From Clostridium sp. (GTDB lineage: Bacteria > Bacteroidota > Bacteroidia > Bacteroidales > Muribaculaceae), in NCBI GenBank assembly GCA_023666615.1, contig JAMPBQ010000001.1, positions 234,621 through 298,620 of the forward strand: 64,000 bases of DNA, in the 5' to 3' direction. The notes below the pieces were generated by a model, which worked only from the letters and a program-made list of their open reading frames with translations, ran no database searches and was not told the origin of the DNA. Each line of letters starts with the position of its first letter. Within the stretch, counting starts at the first letter, position 1. Of the stretch, positions 33,297 through 39,343 are shown piece by piece. A program made the position numbers and the translations under genes.

Positions 33297-34500
33297 CATT
33301 ATCACACTGAATAGGCTGGCCGAGCTCATAGCGCGCGCATCCGGCAAAAGGACTGCAGAGGTTGAGCCGTTTTTGAAGGCCTTCATGGAGACCGCCAAAG
33401 AGGCCATCGCCAGCGATGAAGTCCTTACCGTAAAGGGAATTGGCACCTTCACGGTTGAAGAAGCGCGTGGAGAAAGGAAGATAATGTTTCAAGCGGACGA
33501 GGACTTGGCCAAAGCTGTGAACGACCCATTTTCAATGTTTGAGCCTGAAGAGCTTGCCCCCGGCGCGTCAATCGAGAGCCTTGACATTGACATAATAATC
33601 GATGACATAATCCCCGCATCGGAGCCCGCCCCCAAACAGGAAAGCCAAGAGGGCTCTGAAGGCTCCGAGGCCTCTGAAGGCTCTGAAATCTCTGAAAACT
33701 CCGAGAACTCTGAGGCCTCTGAGAAATCTGAGGCCTCTGAGAACTCTGAAGGCACTGAAGGCTCTGAAGGTTTTAAGAGCTCTAAAAGCCCTTATGCCCC
33801 CAATCTTTCCGCAGATATTGAGACTATAGCCGAAGAAGAGCCCTTTTCAGCATCTTTTGCTGAGCCGCTGGAGCCCGCTGTTCCCGAAAAGCCAAAAACA
33901 AGCCTTGCCGCCGCGTATAATCCACCGCCAATCTCCAAGCCTGATGAAGCAGAAGAGGAGAATGAATATGAAGAAGCGTACGATGAGGAATATTATGAAG
34001 AGGATGCCCGCGGCAAATTCCCCACATTTTGGGCTACTTGGGCCGCAATAATAGGCTTGTTGATAGGATTGGCGATAGGATTCTTCGCGCATGACCCCAT
34101 TTGCGAGCTCCTTGAGCCTACCGCCACAGAGCAAGACCTTGATGAGGCCGAAGATACTGAAGAGCAAAGCCCATCCATCGACCCTTTTATTGAGGAGACA
34201 GAGCCACAGACTACAACCGAGGAGACCGCTGCGCAGCAAGAATCCCCTAAGGAGGAGGCCGATGTATACGACACAATCACCGAGCGGACATTTCTGACCC
34301 ACTTGGCCCAGAAGCATTACCACCAAAAGGATTACTGGGTGTACATCTATCTTGAGAATAAAGACATAATAGGCAATCCAAATACGGTAAAAGCCGGGAC
34401 AAGGGTGAAAATCCCGCCATTGAGCAAATACGCAAAACACTCATCCGAGGCGGAAAACCTTAAGGAAGCCAAGGCCCTCGCAGCCAAAATAACCAAATAA
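33289..34500 (+). CDS. HU-like N-domain, acidic low-complexity linker, single TM and LysM-like C-domain
   Basis: VKGIGTF...FQADEDLAKAVN.PFSMFEP (HU-like); TM FWATWAAIIGLLIGLAIGFFA; LTHLAQKHY....YWVYIYLENKDII.NPN.VKAGTRVKIP (LysM-like); overlaps the HU gene by 8 nt. Confidence 0.82.
   Translation: MNSIITLNRLAELIARASGKRTAEVEPFLKAFMETAKEAIASDEVLTVKGIGTFTVEEARGERKIMFQADEDLAKAVNDPFSMFEPEELAPGASIESLDIDIIIDDIIPASEPAPKQESQEGSEGSEASEGSEISENSENSEASEKSEASENSEGTEGSEGFKSSKSPYAPNLSADIETIAEEEPFSASFAEPLEPAVPEKPKTSLAAAYNPPPISKPDEAEEENEYEEAYDEEYYEEDARGKFPTFWATWAAIIGLLIGLAIGFFAHDPICELLEPTATEQDLDEAEDTEEQSPSIDPFIEETEPQTTTEETAAQQESPKEEADVYDTITERTFLTHLAQKHYHQKDYWVYIYLENKDIIGNPNTVKAGTRVKIPPLSKYAKHSSEAENLKEAKALAAKITK
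33652..33795 (+). repeat. 16 in-frame nonamers encoding (x-S-E)n
   Basis: ggctctgaa ggctccgag gcctctgaa ... agctctaaa agcccttat, translating to GSEGSEASEGSEISENSENSEASEKSEASENSEGTEGSEGFKSSKSPY. Confidence 0.9.
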
Positions 34501-34575
34501 CGACCAAAACATCAATCATCGAACGCCTATGTGAACCACACGATTGAATCCAAACGACGACAAGAAAGATTATAA

Positions 34576-34624
34576 TTAGGGCATTCTGAAAATAATCAAA
34601 TTGTTTATTCTCAGAATGTCCTAA
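34576..34624. terminator. 20-bp inverted repeat (2 mismatches) between the HU-LysM gene and the T9SS cargo gene
   Basis: TTAGGGCATTCTGAAAATAA-TCAAATTGT-TTATTCTCAGAATGTCCTAA followed by CATTTTTGTTTG. Confidence 0.5.
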
Positions 34625-34678
34625 CATTTTTGTTTGATACAACCAATCCCTTTAATATTTACCTAAAAAAGTTTTTCA

Positions 34679-37600
34679 ATGAAAAAACATTTGACATTGA
34701 TGCTTTCCGCGCTTATCGGCATTGGGGCCATCTCGGCGATCGCCTCCCCCGACGCCTTTAGAAGCGCCAGGACAGGAAGGCAAAGCAATGCGCCGGCCGT
34801 CGCCGCCCTCACAAGCGAAGACGCCGCAGCGGCACGCGAGTTTAGAAGACTGCCCGGCAATGACAATGCCGACGGATTCTTCCGAGTTTTACCCCCCCCC
34901 CACAGAACAATCTAACTATCAGAAGGTTAGGAACAATGTTCCGGCAAATCTACAAATTGTAGGACAAGCCGCTTATTTCCCTTCAATGGAAGTCGGCAGC
35001 TTCTACAAGATTCCGACAACAACCAACGGCAAATTTGAGAAAATATGCAATCCCAAGGTCATACTTGACTACGGCGGCGTATACAACGCCTCATCCAATA
35101 CTTTCTCTGGAGTAAGCGCCACATTCTCCAGCTCGCACGTATTCCAAAGCGCCACCTTCTATGAGTTCAGCATGGCTACCCTTGATGTGCTGCGAACTCA
35201 AACCATAACGCCTGAAAATATAGGCCTGCTGGCCTTGTCGATGGCGCAAGACCCGACAAGCGGAAAAAATTACGGATATTTCTTTGGAGACTCACAATCC
35301 AATTTCGTTTGGGGATACATTGACTACAACACGCTTGAGCGCACAAAGATCGCCGACGCCGATGACTTCCTCGACGCTGTGGCCGCCACTGCCGACGGGC
35401 AATATTACGGACTGGACTATCTCGGCCAACTTTATAAAATAGAAAAAGAAACCGGGTCACTTCAGCTGATTGGAAAAACATCCCTGCCTGTACAGTACTC
35501 CTTCGCGGCATGCATGGACCAAATCAACAACAATATGCTGGTGTACTGCGTAGAGGATGACCAAAGCGGCAGCTCGCTCTACGAATTGAATCTGCAGACA
35601 GCCGAAGCGTCAAAAGTGGCCGAGTACCCATTGAGCATGATGATGTCAATGTACACCCTCACGCCCACCTCCGACAAGGCTCCCAATGCGCCAACCCTTG
35701 AACTCTCATCAAAAGAAGGCTCAATGACCGTAGGCTACAGCCTCACTCTTCCTGAAACCATGATTGACGGCAGCGCCATCACGGGAAGCCTCGCGTGGGA
35801 AATTTCAGTGGACGGCGACGTCAAGGCGCAAGGCAATTCAACAGCCGGAATAACTGTGACAGGCTCCATCACGTTGGAGACAGCCGGCATGACTGAATTT
35901 TGCGCTGTGGCAAAGAACGCCAATGGAGAATCGCCCAAGGCATATGCGAAGACATACGTAGGCAACGGCATTCCCGACGCGCCCTCCAACGTGGCGGCAT
36001 CATGGGCCGACGGCACCATGACAATCACCTGGGACGCCGTGACATCAGCCTCTGACGGCGGATACGTAAATCCCGAAGAAATTACATACATGATTTATGA
36101 TATCGGAAAGGGAAAGGTTATGGCAAACGGCGTAAAGGGCACATCCTATGCCTTCTCTCTCCCCGCGCCCGACGAGCGCACTGCTTACCGCTATTCAGTG
36201 ACAGCCCTATTCGACGGCAAGTCCGGCCCAATCACATTGTCGAACGAAGTCTATCTTGGTCCTTACGGCGCTCCATTCGAAGTGACTTTCAACAGCACTT
36301 CTATATTCGCCGAATACGGCTTCACCGTGCTTGACGCAAATGAGGACAACAAGACTTGGACCTCTACAGCTTCCGGCGCCCGCTATCCATACAGCTCCGC
36401 AAACACTGGCGATGATTGGCTTTTTACTCCCCAAATCAAGCTTGAGGCCGGGATGGTATATGAGTTTTCAGTGAATATTGCAGGCAGCAGCTCCAGATAT
36501 AAAGAGGTATTTGAAGTAAAGTACGGAATGGGGAATTCGGTGGAATCCATGACCTATGAAATCCTCCCCTCCACAACATTCACCAGCGTTGCCTCCAGCC
36601 CCAAGACTTTCACCGCATCGTTCAAGCCTGCGGCTACCGGACTATACAACATCGGCATCCACGAAATTTCGCCCAAGAACCAGGGAAACATTCTCTTGAA
36701 GAAAATTTCCATAGGAGCGGGAATTTCACCCCTAACTCCCGACGCCCCAACAAACCTCACCCTTGAGTCAGAGCCCACCGGCGAACTTATGCTAAACGGC
36801 AGCGTGACCGCCCCCTCCCTCACAATCTCCAACGATAAAATCGCAGGCAACGTAAGCCTAAAGGTATACCGCGGCGATGAACTCATCACCACCCTATCGG
36901 CGGCCGCCGGCGCTGCAGCCGCATTCTCTGACCGCGTGCCGGCAAAAGGCAATTACACCTACACCGTGACCGCAGTGAATGAGGGCAATGAAGGCAAATC
37001 AATCTCGTCGCAAATATACGTTGGGCCACATCCCGCGAGGGCGCCTCAAAACGCAAAGATGACTGAGGCAGACCAGCCCGGCATTGTGACAGTGACATGG
37101 GATCCAGTCACTGAAGACATGTACGGCACCCGTCTGGATCCGGCCAACATATCCTATATGGTGTATGAAATCAGCGGCACGCGCCCCGGCGCTCCAAAGC
37201 TTGACTCTCCCGTGAAGACCACCTCCGCCACATTCCAGGCCATAGACGATCCGAACAAGCAAGAATTCAAGCAGTTTATGGTGACGGCATTCAACCGCGA
37301 TGAAGAAAGCACGGTGTACAGCTGCATCACCAACACACTCCCCGTGGGCGTGGCCTACAAAATGCCTTACAAGCTCTCCTGCAAGGAAGATTTGGAGGAG
37401 ACTGTATTTGGAATCGACAGGTCGCTAAGCACAATCAAAATTGGATTCTACGATGACAGCACCATGGCTGAATTAGGCTCTCAAGACGGCGACAACGGAT
37501 ATTTGAGCATGAAATTTGGAAAGAAGCAGCAATGGGGCGAAATTTTCTCCGCAAAGATAGACCTTTCCAAAGCCGTGCGCCCAGAGCTTACATTCTATGT

Positions 37601-39200
37601 ATTCAAGCTTGAGAATGATGACGCCAACCAATTGGCGGTTACAATCGAGCAGGATGGAGTTCAAACCGAAGTGTACAAGACCGACCTCTCCGACATGAAA
37701 GAGCGGGAATGGAACAAAGCGCGCATCAGCCTTGACCAATATAAGGGCAAGGACATTCAATTCAGAATGCGCGGCACATGCACAAAATACATGTATATCT
37801 TCCTGGACAACATCCGCATACAGGAAATGGCCGACAAAGATATTCGCGTGACCGGCATATCAGCCCCCGAAAGCGTCAACATCAACGAAACGTTCTCTGT
37901 TTCTGTAAATGTAGCCAACGAAGGGGCCGAAACGGCCAATAATTTCACTGTAAGCCTATACCGAGACGGTGAAATCGCCGACACCAAGACCATATCCTCC
38001 CTTGCGTCAGAAGCTCAAGCCACAGTGACATTCAACACATCAATTTCGCACTTCGACGCTGACAACACCGCGGCGACATACCGCGCCGAAGCGGCATTCA
38101 GCGGCGATAAGGATATGACAAACAATTCATCGAAGGACATCACCGTTGCCCGAAAGACCAACAAGCATCCTGCCATCTCCGACCTTGACGGCGTGCAGAA
38201 GGATGATGGCGTGCATCTTACATGGACCCCCTACTCCAAGCCCGAAATCATCGCGCCAAGCGAATCAACTGAGGACATTGAAGGCGGCATGTGCGGCGAA
38301 CAGGCTCTGGAAGGCTGGACCATCATCGATGTTGACCAGTGCGGAATTGGAAGTTTCGAAGGGCTGACAATCCCGGGAATCGCAACAAATTCTCCGGCAT
38401 CGTTCTTCGTATTCGACGTCAAGGCGCTCGGCATAGAGGCCAACGAAACAGTCACTCCCCACAGCGGATCGAAATTCCTTGGTTCCTTCCCCAACTATGA
38501 CTATGAATACAATGACGACTGGGCAATTTCGCCAAAGCTCCCCGGCACGGCCCAGACCATATCGTTCTACGCCAAGACTTACGACAAGTGGCTCCCAACC
38601 AACTTCCAAATCCTCTATACAACGAAGGACTCCACCGATCCCGCCGACTACACAATGATCAGCGAGCACAAGGAAATCTCCGACAGTTGGACAAAATATG
38701 AGGCAACGCTCCCGGAAGGCGCTCTCCATTTCGCCATTCGCCACTACTCTGTATGGGCGTCAATGCTTATGGTTGACGACATCACCTTCACATATGCTCC
38801 CGAGGCTGTGGCCTTCGACCTTGTCGGTCATGACGTTTACCGCAATGGAAGCAAGATAAATGAAGAGCCCGTAGTTGGCGGAGAATACATTGACGCAAGC
38901 GCCCCTGACGGACTGCACACCTACCACGTAGTCGCCAAATTCGCTACTGGCGAATCCGACCTCTCGAACAGCGTATCAGTCGCCACCTCGGGCATAGGCG
39001 AATCCCTAGCGGACGGAGTGAAGGTATATTCAGCCGGCGGAAACATAATCATTGAAGGCGCCGATGGCAAGGCCACAAGCGTATTCAGCGTTGACGGAAA
39101 GACTGTTTACACAGGCATGGGAGACGCCAAAGTCGCCGCATCCGCTGGCGTATACATGGTGACTGTCGGCTCCCGCGCTTATAAATTGCTGGTGAAATAA
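34679..39200 (+). CDS. Large T9SS-secreted adhesin-like protein (propeller-like N-part, FN3 repeats, choice-of-anchor-J domains, CARDB-like Ig, CTD), frameshifted at a C10 tract
   Basis: The signal-peptide ORF 34679-34915 and the main ORF ending at 39200 join into 1506 aa if the C-run is 9 instead of 10. Motifs DDWLFTPQI.L and NDDWAISPKL (cleaved-adhesin type). C-terminus ...GVYMVTVGSRAYKLLVK (T9SS CTD-like). Confidence 0.85.
34892..34901 (+). repeat. C10 homopolymer at the frameshift point
   Basis: GTTTTA-CCCCCCCCCC-ACAGAAC. Confidence 0.9.
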
Positions 39201-39297
39201 GCCTCCGATTAATAAAAAAATGCTAATTGTTGGCTATGCTAAAGAATTGGTAAACAATTTTAACATTCCAATTTAGCAAATCTCACATTATTAATTG

Positions 39298-39343
39298 TAA
39301 CTTTGTAGCCGGAATTTGGGTGATTATGCCCCAAATTCCGGCT
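39298..39343 (+). promoter_or_regulatory. moxR-bat promoter: -7 element followed immediately by a perfect 14-bp inverted repeat
   Basis: TAACTTTG at 39298-39305; AGCCGGAATTTGGG-TGATTATGC-CCCAAATTCCGGCT at 39307-39343. Confidence 0.7.

What the first reader, a model, noticed from the sequence alone, without database searches (positions are those of the whole stretch)
34679..39200. Candidate phase-variable adhesin: C10 tract uncouples the signal peptide from a ~1500-aa T9SS cargo
Seen: ORF 34679-34915 begins with a clean signal peptide (MKKHLTLMLSALIGIGAISAIA) and reads ...FRVLPPPHRTI-stop through C10 at 34892-34901. The long downstream ORF is in another frame with no signal peptide. Removing one C gives ...FRVLPPPTEQSNYQKV... 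and one 1506-aa protein ending in a T9SS-type CTD. Established: slipped-strand mispairing at G/C homopolymers near the 5' end of surface-protein genes is a classic contingency mechanism, whereas Bacteroidales are best known for invertible promoters. Inference: this is an ON/OFF surface antigen captured OFF. I saw no other frameshift among about 50 genes here, which argues modestly against a noisy assembly.
Basis: partly seen in the sequence, partly recalled or inferred. Interest (0 to 1): 0.75.

Follow-up and report, generated by a model that had tools for sequence, protein, structure and literature searches.

The report
Poly-C on/off switch in surface-protein gene
A run of ten C's separates the export signal of a large secreted surface protein from its body in an uncultured Bacteroidales bacterium, and this genome holds dozens of similar G/C runs in surface-sugar, surface-protein and restriction genes (about half out of frame), so it is most likely a slippage-driven on/off switch caught "off", though run-length variation could not be checked.

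Summary
C10 at 34892-34901 ends a 78-aa signal-peptide ORF. C9 or C12 gives one 1506/1507-aa protein: signal peptide, linker, beta-propeller, Ig/choice-of-anchor-J/CARDB domains and a T9SS-type C-terminal domain.

The fused frame is ancestral. Every homologue is in frame with no tract, and one homologue aligns straight across the junction. The frameshift is the only lesion in 1432 codons.

The tract is not isolated. G/C homopolymer counts in this genome stop falling at length 8 (43, 26, 16, 11 for lengths 7-10). The long runs share a Gn-TA flank and lie in acyltransferase, GT2, ATP-grasp, radical-SAM, HsdS and T9SS-cargo genes, 8 out of frame and 6 in frame. A paralogue carries an independent in-frame G9 in the same linker. 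None of the A/T>=8 candidates is a real frameshift, so a generally noisy assembly is excluded. A second species shows the same pattern.

Not shown: tract-length polymorphism.

Verdict: a probable homopolymer contingency locus (about 0.68). It is a new member of a known kind, in an order where I found no report of this mechanism. "Adhesin" remains an inference.

The parts
34474..39205 (+). Lineage-specific 4.7-kb segment carrying the whole gene. In the sister species a 0.8-kb segment with a 242-aa gene occupies this slot between HU-TM-LysM and MoxR.
   Evidence: synteny in L027-L031. (blastn: flanks 77-84% identical up to window ~34473 and from ~39206; the 242-aa protein is unrelated to the adhesin and absent from this genome).
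34576..34624 (.). 49-nt near-perfect palindrome between the upstream gene's stop and the gene's 5' region. It is terminator- or operator-like and does not have inverton architecture.
   Evidence: arms of 24 nt, 88% complementary, 1 nt apart; no flanking inverted repeats enclosing a promoter.
34679..34744 (+). Sec-type signal peptide coding region (MKKHLTLMLSALIGIGAISAIA).
   Evidence: read directly from the sequence (n-region MKKH, hydrophobic core, AIA-S cleavage-like site). Homologues start the same way.
34679..34915 (+). 78-aa ORF as assembled (signal peptide plus low-complexity linker), ending 14 nt after the tract. This is the OFF product.
   Evidence: It is present as a called protein in the collection, as a singleton.
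34892..34901 (+). C10 homopolymer, the proposed slippage switch. C9 or C12 is in frame (PPP or PPPP); C8, C10 and C11 are out of frame. On the minus strand it reads G10-TAAAAC, so it belongs to the genome's Gn-TA tract class.
34902..39200 (+). Body of the surface protein: 1432 codons plus stop, with no internal stop or second frameshift.
34947..35726 (+). N-terminal beta-propeller domain.
   Evidence: AlphaFold2 pLDDT 89, pTM 0.85, all-beta. (Foldseek: propellers, including Bacteroides surface lipoproteins of the BtuG type; TM 0.45-0.58).
37839..38087 (+). CARDB (cell-adhesion-related Ig-like) domain.
   Evidence: PF07705, E 3e-13. (PDB 2l0d 'cell surface protein').
38499..38786 (+). Choice-of-anchor J jelly-roll domain. 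This is the best of two stretches; the other is near residues 480-640.
   Evidence: NF038128, 84 bits, 2 stretches.
39009..39194 (+). C-terminal sorting domain of T9SS type (DUF6383 family).
   Evidence: 36 bits against a 23.7 cut-off; shared by 3 paralogues. (hhalign 92%, E 6e-7 against Por_Secre_tail CTDs). SprA is present.

Best explanation
The gene encodes a lineage-specific surface protein of about 1500 aa exported by Sec and then by the type IX secretion system. A hypermutable poly-C tract has evolved in the disordered linker between the signal peptide and the first folded domain, out of an ordinary Ser-Pro-Thr coding stretch. Slipped-strand mispairing during replication changes the run length. 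C9 or C12 joins the signal peptide to the body (ON, surface-displayed). C8, C10 or C11 stops translation after 78-94 aa, and any product of the downstream frame lacks a signal peptide and cannot reach the T9SS (OFF). The assembly shows the OFF length. The gene is one member of a genome-wide set of G/C-tract contingency genes (a 'phasome') covering surface-glycan modification, T9SS cargo and a type I restriction specificity subunit. Shown: the anatomy, the ancestral frame, the single lesion, the tract over-representation, the gene-class bias, the mixed ON/OFF states, and an intact MutS/MutL background. Inferred: that the tract length actually varies, and that switching is adaptive.
For: (1) Frame logic.
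(2) The fused frame is ancestral. All homologues have the signal peptide in frame and no G/C run of 6 or more in the 5' coding part. BLASTP of the fused N-terminus against P0003 aligns residues 65-142 across the junction (DGFFRVLPPPTEQ vs DGLFRV-QSPTEE, E 2e-6). The homologue's DNA there is GTG CAG TCG CCC ACC GAG.
(3) The tract is the only lesion in 1432 codons.
(4) Heavy tail of long G/C runs, with a strand-asymmetric Gn-TA flank in 61% of runs of 9 or more, while that dinucleotide is not among the top five for runs of 5-7. The finding's tract has this flank.
(5) Tract-bearing genes are 4 Acyl_transf_3, 4 GT2, a sugar-transfer ATP-grasp, a radical SAM, HsdS, a T9SS rhamnosidase and two DUF6383 surface proteins. 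In several OFF genes one Pfam domain spans the junction. States: 8 OFF, 6 ON.
(6) Paralogue C22:56094-60677 has an independent in-frame G9 on the other strand, about 63 codons after its start, in the same linker.
(7) On inspection, none of the 13 A/T>=8 'broken' candidates is a real frameshift. Against 8 OFF at intragenic G/C>=8 tracts, this excludes a generally homopolymer-noisy assembly.
(8) Genus-wide: G9TA occurs in 51 of 61 species, 197 hits against 88 for the reversed control outside this genome. In G049 the same gene classes carry TA-Cn tracts ON and OFF, including paralogous GT2s with G9 and G8 at the same site.
(9) No inverton at the gene, and MoxR downstream has its own promoter box.
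Against: No direct evidence that the run length varies. Reads could not be examined, and no other assembly of this species exists in the collections. The tract is absent from all homologues, so its age and persistence are unknown. G/C tracts are enriched near contig ends (11 of 54 against 3.8% expected). That fits population heterogeneity but also sequencing difficulty at these runs, so a G/C-specific miscall of plus or minus 1 cannot be excluded. A few long tracts lie in frame in housekeeping-type genes (ABC-F ATPase at C66:62178; rplT in a sister species), so a long tract alone does not prove a switch.
Confidence: 0.68

Rival explanations
1. Assembly or consensus miscall of a long G/C homopolymer: the true majority length is C9 (or C12), so the gene is simply intact and ON in this population. 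The tract might still be mutable.
For: The assembly is fragmented, with 91 contigs, and its large scaffold holds 21 gaps of 100 N. It looks like a short-read MAG (94.6% complete). Long G/C tracts are 5-fold enriched within 600 nt of contig ends, which shows that these runs trouble the assembler. Reads could not be checked.
Against: It would need about half of all intragenic G/C>=8 tracts to be miscalled (8 of 14), while none of the A/T>=8 candidates is a real frameshift. An independent assembly of another species shows the same ON/OFF mix. Consensus miscalls at 8-10-mers are uncommon in short-read data (general knowledge, not tested here).
Confidence: 0.15
2. Plain, recently fixed pseudogene: a one-off slippage at a mutation-prone run inactivated an accessory gene that is on its way to being lost, with no reversible switching of biological value.
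For: The gene is an accessory insertion or replacement absent from the sister species. No homologue carries the tract. The species is seen only once, so persistence of the tract cannot be shown.
Against: There is no second lesion in 4.3 kb. A paralogue has independently acquired a tract in the same linker and is in frame. The genome-wide excess of long G/C runs in particular gene classes, with a shared flank, indicates that the tracts are maintained rather than accidental.
Confidence: 0.1
3. Programmed recoding: the C10 allele is the functional form, and full-length protein is made by +1 ribosomal slippage on CCC-C proline codons or by RNA-polymerase slippage on the run.
For: The needed shift is +1. 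The site is CCC CCC CCC C, a tRNA-Pro slippery and stalling context known from work on EF-P and m1G37 (general knowledge). The zero-frame stop lies only 4 codons downstream.
Against: Programmed frameshift sites are conserved among homologues, whereas here every homologue is in frame without any run. The other tract genes are OFF by either -1 or +1 and carry tracts on either strand, which fits DNA-level slippage and not one recoding signal. No stimulatory element was identified.
Confidence: 0.04

Closest known systems
Poly-G/C contingency genes of Campylobacter jejuni (capsule, LOS and flagellar-glycan loci) and Helicobacter pylori
   Same: A genome-wide set of G/C runs of 8-11 nt inside the coding sequence of glycosyltransferases, acyl/acetyl-transferases and other surface-modifying genes, roughly half of them out of frame in any one genome. 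The length distribution of G/C runs is bimodal.
   Different: Those organisms lack MutS1/MutL mismatch repair, whereas this genome has MutL and both halves of MutS1. The phylum differs (Bacteroidota). The tracts here carry a marked 3' TA flank (Gn-TA). The cargo here is a T9SS protein.
Neisseria pilC, opa-type and hmbR/hpuAB switches, and Haemophilus contingency loci (a repeat in or just after the signal-peptide coding region of a surface protein)
   Same: The repeat lies between or within the leader and the mature protein, so a frameshift separates export signal from body. The mismatch-repair background is proficient.
   Different: Here the tract lies about 50 codons after the signal-peptide cleavage site, in a disordered linker. 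Secretion is by T9SS, not by an autotransporter, pilus or TonB-receptor route. Switching has not been demonstrated.
Bacteroidales invertible promoters (Mpi/Tsr-type invertons of capsule, fimbrial and S-layer loci)
   Same: The same biological end (stochastic ON/OFF of surface structures in gut Bacteroidales) and the same kinds of target loci.
   Different: The mechanism is different. No inverted repeats flank a promoter here, no recombinase is involved, and the switch is translational (frame) rather than transcriptional.
T9SS cargo with gingipain/HagA-like 'cleaved adhesin' or choice-of-anchor J modules
   Same: A Sec signal, multiple Ig and jelly-roll modules, CARDB and a C-terminal sorting domain. 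Homologues have weak Cleaved_Adhesin hits.
   Different: No protease domain. The CTD is of the DUF6383 subtype, which is below the Por_Secre_tail Pfam threshold. The ligand is unknown.

Membership tests
Simple-sequence-repeat (homopolymer) contingency locus | Homopolymer of about 8 nt or more in the 5' coding region or promoter of the gene | tested here: met
   C10 at codons 72-75 of the fused ORF.
Simple-sequence-repeat (homopolymer) contingency locus | Gain or loss of repeat units toggles an otherwise intact ORF between full-length and truncated | tested here: met
   In silico, C9 and C12 give 1506 and 1507 aa, and C8, C10 and C11 give 93, 78 and 94 aa. There is no other lesion.
Simple-sequence-repeat (homopolymer) contingency locus | Tracts over-represented in the genome and concentrated in surface, glycan and restriction-modification genes | tested here: met
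Simple-sequence-repeat (homopolymer) contingency locus | Tract length polymorphic within a population or between near-identical strains | not testable with these tools
There was no other copy in metagenome contigs. All clusters at 90% identity are singletons. The only indirect evidence is G9 against G8 at the same site in two paralogous GT2 genes of G049.
Simple-sequence-repeat (homopolymer) contingency locus | Reversible, heritable ON/OFF phenotype | not testable with these tools
   This needs culture or single-cell work.
T9SS cargo protein | N-terminal Sec signal peptide | tested here: met
   Read from the sequence (MKKH plus hydrophobic core plus AIA-S) and shared with homologues. No dedicated signal-peptide predictor was available.
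T9SS cargo protein | C-terminal sorting domain homologous to type-A CTD | tested here: met
   PF19910 at 36 bits, over its cut-off. Profile-profile comparison against Por_Secre_tail CTDs gives 92%, E 6e-7. PF18962 itself is not reached at threshold.
T9SS cargo protein | T9SS machinery encoded in the genome | tested here: met
   SprA/Sov at 618 bits in a 2504-aa frame. Eight Por_Secre_tail cargo hits. Other components were not searched.
Bacteroidales invertible-promoter switch | Inverted repeats flanking a promoter-bearing segment upstream of the gene | tested here: not met
   The only inverted repeat is a contiguous 49-nt palindrome. No IR pair encloses a segment upstream of the ATG.
Programmed ribosomal frameshift gene | Frameshift site and two-frame architecture conserved in homologues | tested here: not met
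   All homologues are single-frame with no run.
Decaying pseudogene | Multiple independent lesions (stops, indels, truncation) | tested here: not met
   There is a single frameshift at the tract, and 1432 codons are open downstream of it.

The most novel reading that the evidence does not exclude
This uncultured Bacteroidales genus carries a Campylobacter-like 'phasome'. Dozens of G/C runs of 8-11 nt, marked by a strand-asymmetric Gn-TA flank, lie inside genes and next to promoter-like boxes. They stochastically switch T9SS surface proteins, capsule/LPS-decorating acyl- and glycosyl-transferases, SusC-like and BspA-like surface proteins and a type I restriction specificity subunit. This happens in a mismatch-repair-proficient background and independently of the invertase systems considered typical of the order. 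The conserved TA flank would then point to a shared constraint on how such tracts arise or function.
Probability: 0.45. Interest if true: 0.65.

Novelty: new member of a known kind. Interest (0 to 1): 0.5.

Why it matters
Phase variation in gut Bacteroidales is generally attributed to invertases. A second, repeat-based layer would mean that surface-protein, capsule-decoration and restriction phenotypes of uncultured gut lineages cannot be read from a single consensus genome. It would also mean that gene callers systematically mis-annotate these genes: here the product was called from an internal ATG as a 1404-aa protein without a signal peptide. For T9SS biology it would be an example of cargo display controlled at the signal-peptide/body junction. 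In practice the roughly 15 intragenic tracts give a ready panel for testing tract-length heterogeneity in any read set of this organism.

Tried and rejected
2. DNA search of 40 relatives with the 5' region found only the genome itself.
3. A flank-anchored pattern allowing any tract length found 0 hits in metagenome contigs.
4. Cluster look-ups of this gene, its neighbours and ten other tract-gene products were all singletons for this species, so no ON/OFF polymorphism could be sought.
5. Multi-sample loci of the sister species (L027-L031) held only one C8, and it differs by a SNP rather than by length.
6. P0002's odd N-terminus was suspected to hide a tract, but it is only a mis-called start.
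7. ORF-geometry tests for 'broken' genes at A/T and short G/C runs were confounded by gene boundaries. They were replaced by inspecting each candidate.
8. The codon-usage test (PPP as CCCx3, GGG as GGGx3) did not discriminate, with observed 1 against expected 1-2.
9. mutS looked truncated (487-aa frame), but it is split by a scaffold gap and its C-terminal half is on C79. The mutator idea was rejected.
10. The inverton idea was rejected.
11. The genome-contig scan with the protein returned only a 25%-identical Paraprevotella MAG locus, so the genus name was not obtained.
12. Literature searches for homopolymer or SSR phase variation in Bacteroidales found nothing relevant beyond a speculative remark on a C4/C5 frameshift in B. 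fragilis (PMC3090145).
Full report
OBSERVATION. The sequence reads ...GAC GGA TTC TTC CGA GTT TTA CCCCCCCCCC ACA GAA CAA..., with the C10 at 34892-34901. ORF 34679-34915 encodes 78 aa, beginning MKKHLTLMLSALIGIGAISAIA and ending ...FRVLPPPHRTI*. The long frame 34722-39200 has no signal peptide. Changing only the run length gives these products: C9, 1506 aa; C12, 1507 aa; C8, C10 and C11, 93, 78 and 94 aa. The public gene call for this contig starts at an internal ATG (P0001, 1404 aa). C10 is the only G/C run of 8 or more in the window.

WHAT THE GENE IS. The body carries CARDB, weak MAM and Ig hits, and a C-terminal DUF6383 domain. It also has two choice-of-anchor J stretches. Its first domain folds confidently as a beta-propeller (pLDDT 89, pTM 0.85). 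The nearest solved structures are generic propellers, including surface-exposed Bacteroides lipoproteins. The DUF6383 tail is shared with three paralogues and is homologous at profile level to the canonical T9SS CTDs of this genome (hhalign 92%, E 6e-7). SprA/Sov and eight Por_Secre_tail cargo proteins are present. So this is a Sec-plus-T9SS surface protein with ligand-binding-type modules. 'Adhesin' is plausible but not shown.

THE FUSED FRAME IS THE ANCESTRAL ONE.
- Homologues at 30-37% identity are common in the genus.
- All of them have signal peptide, a linker of about 80-100 aa and the body in one frame, with no G/C run of 6 or more in the 5' coding part.
- BLASTP of the fused N-terminus against P0003 aligns residues 65-142. 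The alignment starts upstream of the tract in the signal-peptide frame and continues downstream in the body frame: DGFFRVLPPPTEQ against DGLFRV-QSPTEE (E 2e-6).
- The homologue's DNA at that point is GTG CAG TCG CCC ACC GAG. The tract therefore grew out of an ordinary Ser-Pro-Thr linker codon string.
- This also argues against programmed frameshifting, which would be conserved among homologues.

GENOMIC SETTING. In the sister species the order is ProRS, HU, HU-TM-LysM, a 242-aa gene, MoxR. In this window about 4.7 kb (34474-39205) replaces that 0.8-kb segment, and the flanks are 77-84% identical. The gene is thus a lineage-specific accessory gene and a stand-alone unit. MoxR downstream has its own exact TAnnTTTG box at 39298. 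There is no inverton upstream, only a 49-nt palindrome at 34576-34624.

THE TRACT IS ONE OF A FAMILY. The genome is 2.87 Mb in 91 contigs at 52% G+C.
- G/C runs of length 5-11 number 2648, 365, 43, 26, 16, 11 and 1. A/T runs keep declining.
- In the G orientation, 61% of runs of 9 or more and 32% of 8-mers are followed by TA. That dinucleotide is not among the five commonest after 5-7-mers.
- The finding's tract reads G10-TAAAAC on the minus strand.
- G9TA occurs in 51 of 61 species of the genus. My sum of the table gives 197 hits against 88 for the reversed control outside this genome, and 17 against 5 in this genome.

WHICH GENES CARRY TRACTS. Fusing each candidate and scanning Pfam gives the following. 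'G-tract' here means poly-G in the gene's sense orientation.

| Locus | Tract | Gene | State |
|---|---|---|---|
| C2:23739 | C10 | Acyl_transf_3 (tract at codon 5) | OFF |
| C33:16597 | C10 | Acyl_transf_3 (one domain spans the junction) | OFF |
| C32:1244 | C10 | Acyl_transf_3 | ON |
| C33:82245 | G9 | Acyl_transf_3 | ON |
| C22:532 | C10 | GT2 | OFF |
| C32:6258 | C8 | GT2 (domain spans the junction) | OFF |
| C78:1422 | C9 | GT2 | OFF |
| C32:2880 | C7 | GT2 | OFF |
| C32:10225 | C10 | sugar-transfer ATP-grasp | OFF |
| C32:8770 | C9 | radical SAM (tract at codon 9) | ON |
| C55:19025 | C8 | HsdS, between the two target-recognition domains | ON |
| C4:25340 | G8 | alpha-L-rhamnosidase with Por_Secre_tail (Ig domain spans the junction) | OFF |
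| C22:60398 | G9 | paralogous 1500-aa DUF6383 protein | ON |
| C66:62178 | G9 | ABC-F-like ATPase | ON |

Counting this gene, the intragenic tracts of 8 or more are 8 OFF and 6 ON. Intergenic tracts lie beside a SusC-like receptor, a BspA-type LRR protein, a small T9SS-CTD protein, a DUF5128 lipoprotein and a WG-repeat protein. These are the gene classes that carry contingency repeats in Campylobacter, Helicobacter, Neisseria and Haemophilus (general knowledge).

The paralogue's G9 lies about 63 codons after its likely start, in the same signal-peptide-to-domain linker as the C10 here. It is on the opposite strand and in unrelated sequence, so it was acquired independently.

IS IT AN ASSEMBLY ARTEFACT? 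Reads could not be examined.
- Indirect control. ORF-geometry tests were confounded by gene boundaries, so I inspected all 13 A/T>=8 'broken' candidates. Each one is a 5'-UTR before an obvious MKK... start, a promoter box, a terminator hairpin or an intact gene. None is a real frameshift, against 8 OFF genes at intragenic G/C>=8 tracts.
- This rules out a generally homopolymer-noisy assembly. It does not rule out a G/C-specific miscall.
- Long G/C tracts are enriched within 600 nt of contig ends (11 of 54 against 3.8% expected, p about 5e-6). That fits either length heterogeneity or sequencing difficulty.
- An independent assembly of another species (G049) shows the same picture in a polysaccharide locus. 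TA-Cn tracts lie in acyltransferase-like and GT2 genes, some in frame and some not. Two paralogous GT2s carry G9 (in frame) and G8 (out of frame) at the same NWLRGGV site.

MISMATCH REPAIR. MutL is intact. MutS1 is split only by a scaffold gap: its N-terminal half ends at C11:854281 and its C-terminal half is on C79. The background resembles Neisseria and Haemophilus rather than the repair-deficient Campylobacter and Helicobacter.

WHAT COULD NOT BE SHOWN. The species is unique in the collections. The gene, its neighbours and ten other tract-gene products are all singletons. A flank-anchored pattern found nothing in metagenome contigs. No tract-length polymorphism could therefore be documented for this gene or this species.

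LITERATURE AND EARLIER NOTES. Five full-text searches found no description of homopolymer or SSR phase variation in Bacteroidales. One B. fragilis paper notes a frameshift in a run of 4 Cs in an acetyltransferase and speculates on slippage (PMC3090145). Earlier AI notes of this scan report similar poly-G switches in other gut Bacteroidales, some with between-strain length variation. They are leads, not evidence. They agree with this reading, and one names the same GT2 N-x-G-G-V site that I saw in G049.

VERDICT. The best-supported reading is a slipped-strand ON/OFF switch at the signal-peptide/body junction of a T9SS surface protein, captured at an OFF length, as one member of a genome-wide G/C-tract phasome (confidence about 0.68). 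The rivals are a tract-length miscall (0.15), a recently fixed pseudogene (0.10) and recoding (0.04). The mechanism is classical, while the order, the T9SS cargo and the Gn-TA flank are new features. I therefore class it as a new member of a known kind, with moderate interest.

Noticed in passing
whole genome (e.g. C33:82245, C11:649128, C88:41872, C8:1551); genus-wide: Long G/C runs have a strand-asymmetric flank: Gn is followed by TA in 61% of runs of 9 or more. Many intergenic ones read Gn-TA(n0-4)TTTG, resembling the Bacteroidetes -7 box TAnnTTTG abutting the tract. They are often preceded by TTAACA-like motifs. This may be promoter-spacer phase variation or a shared tract-forming constraint; it remains unexplained.
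   Followed up: partly
genome C55:19025-19032: A C8 tract lies between the two target-recognition domains of a type I restriction specificity subunit (HsdS, Methylase_S) and is in frame as assembled. It is a candidate phase-variable methylation specificity ('phasevarion'-like).
   Followed up: partly
genome contig C32 (14 kb): 1244, 2880, 6258, 8770, 10225: Five G/C tracts (C7-C10) lie in one polysaccharide-type locus, in Acyl_transf_3, two GT2, radical SAM and sugar-transfer ATP-grasp genes. Two are in frame and three are out of frame, which would allow combinatorial glycan variation if they are real switches.
   Followed up: partly
genome C4:25340-25347: A G8 tract breaks a 1233-aa alpha-L-rhamnosidase that has a canonical T9SS CTD. 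The Ig_Rha78A_N domain spans the junction, and TAA follows the run directly in the OFF frame.
   Followed up: partly
window 34474-39205 vs L027:9036-9820: The whole surface-protein gene replaces an unrelated 242-aa gene found at this slot (between HU-TM-LysM and the MoxR-Bat operon) in the sister species. This slot is a variable accessory site in otherwise conserved core synteny.
   Followed up: yes
window 34576-34624: A 49-nt near-perfect palindrome (24-nt arms, 88% complementary) lies between the upstream stop and the gene's 5' region. It could be a terminator for the HU-TM-LysM gene or an operator.
   Followed up: no
L033+L034 (G049:C10:1-40000): Another species of the genus has seven TA-Cn/Gn-TA tracts in a polysaccharide locus. 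Two paralogous GT2 genes carry G9 (in frame) and G8 (out of frame) at the same NWLRGGV site.
   Followed up: partly
genome contig ends (C3, C5, C17, C22, C35, C38, C43, C49, C84): G/C runs of 8 or more are 5-fold enriched within 600 nt of contig ends (11 of 54, p about 5e-6), and A/T runs much less so (21 of 298). The assembler tends to break near these tracts.
   Followed up: yes
genome C11:854281-854380 and C79:582-1148: mutS (MutS1) is split by a 100-N scaffold gap, and its C-terminal ATPase half sits at the start of contig C79. It looks like an assembly break, not a gene lesion.
   Followed up: yes
genome C66:62178-62186; L004:448-455 (G023): Long tracts also occur in frame in housekeeping-type genes: a G9 in an ABC-F-like ATPase here, and a C8 inside rplT (ribosomal protein L20) in a sister species. 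Not every long tract is likely to be a switch.
   Followed up: no
L011 (G014:C6), 357 nt upstream of an adhesin-family homologue: A TA-C8 tract flanked by GTTAACA-like motifs lies upstream of a homologue of this gene in a sister species. The family may also be controlled by tracts at promoter level.
   Followed up: no
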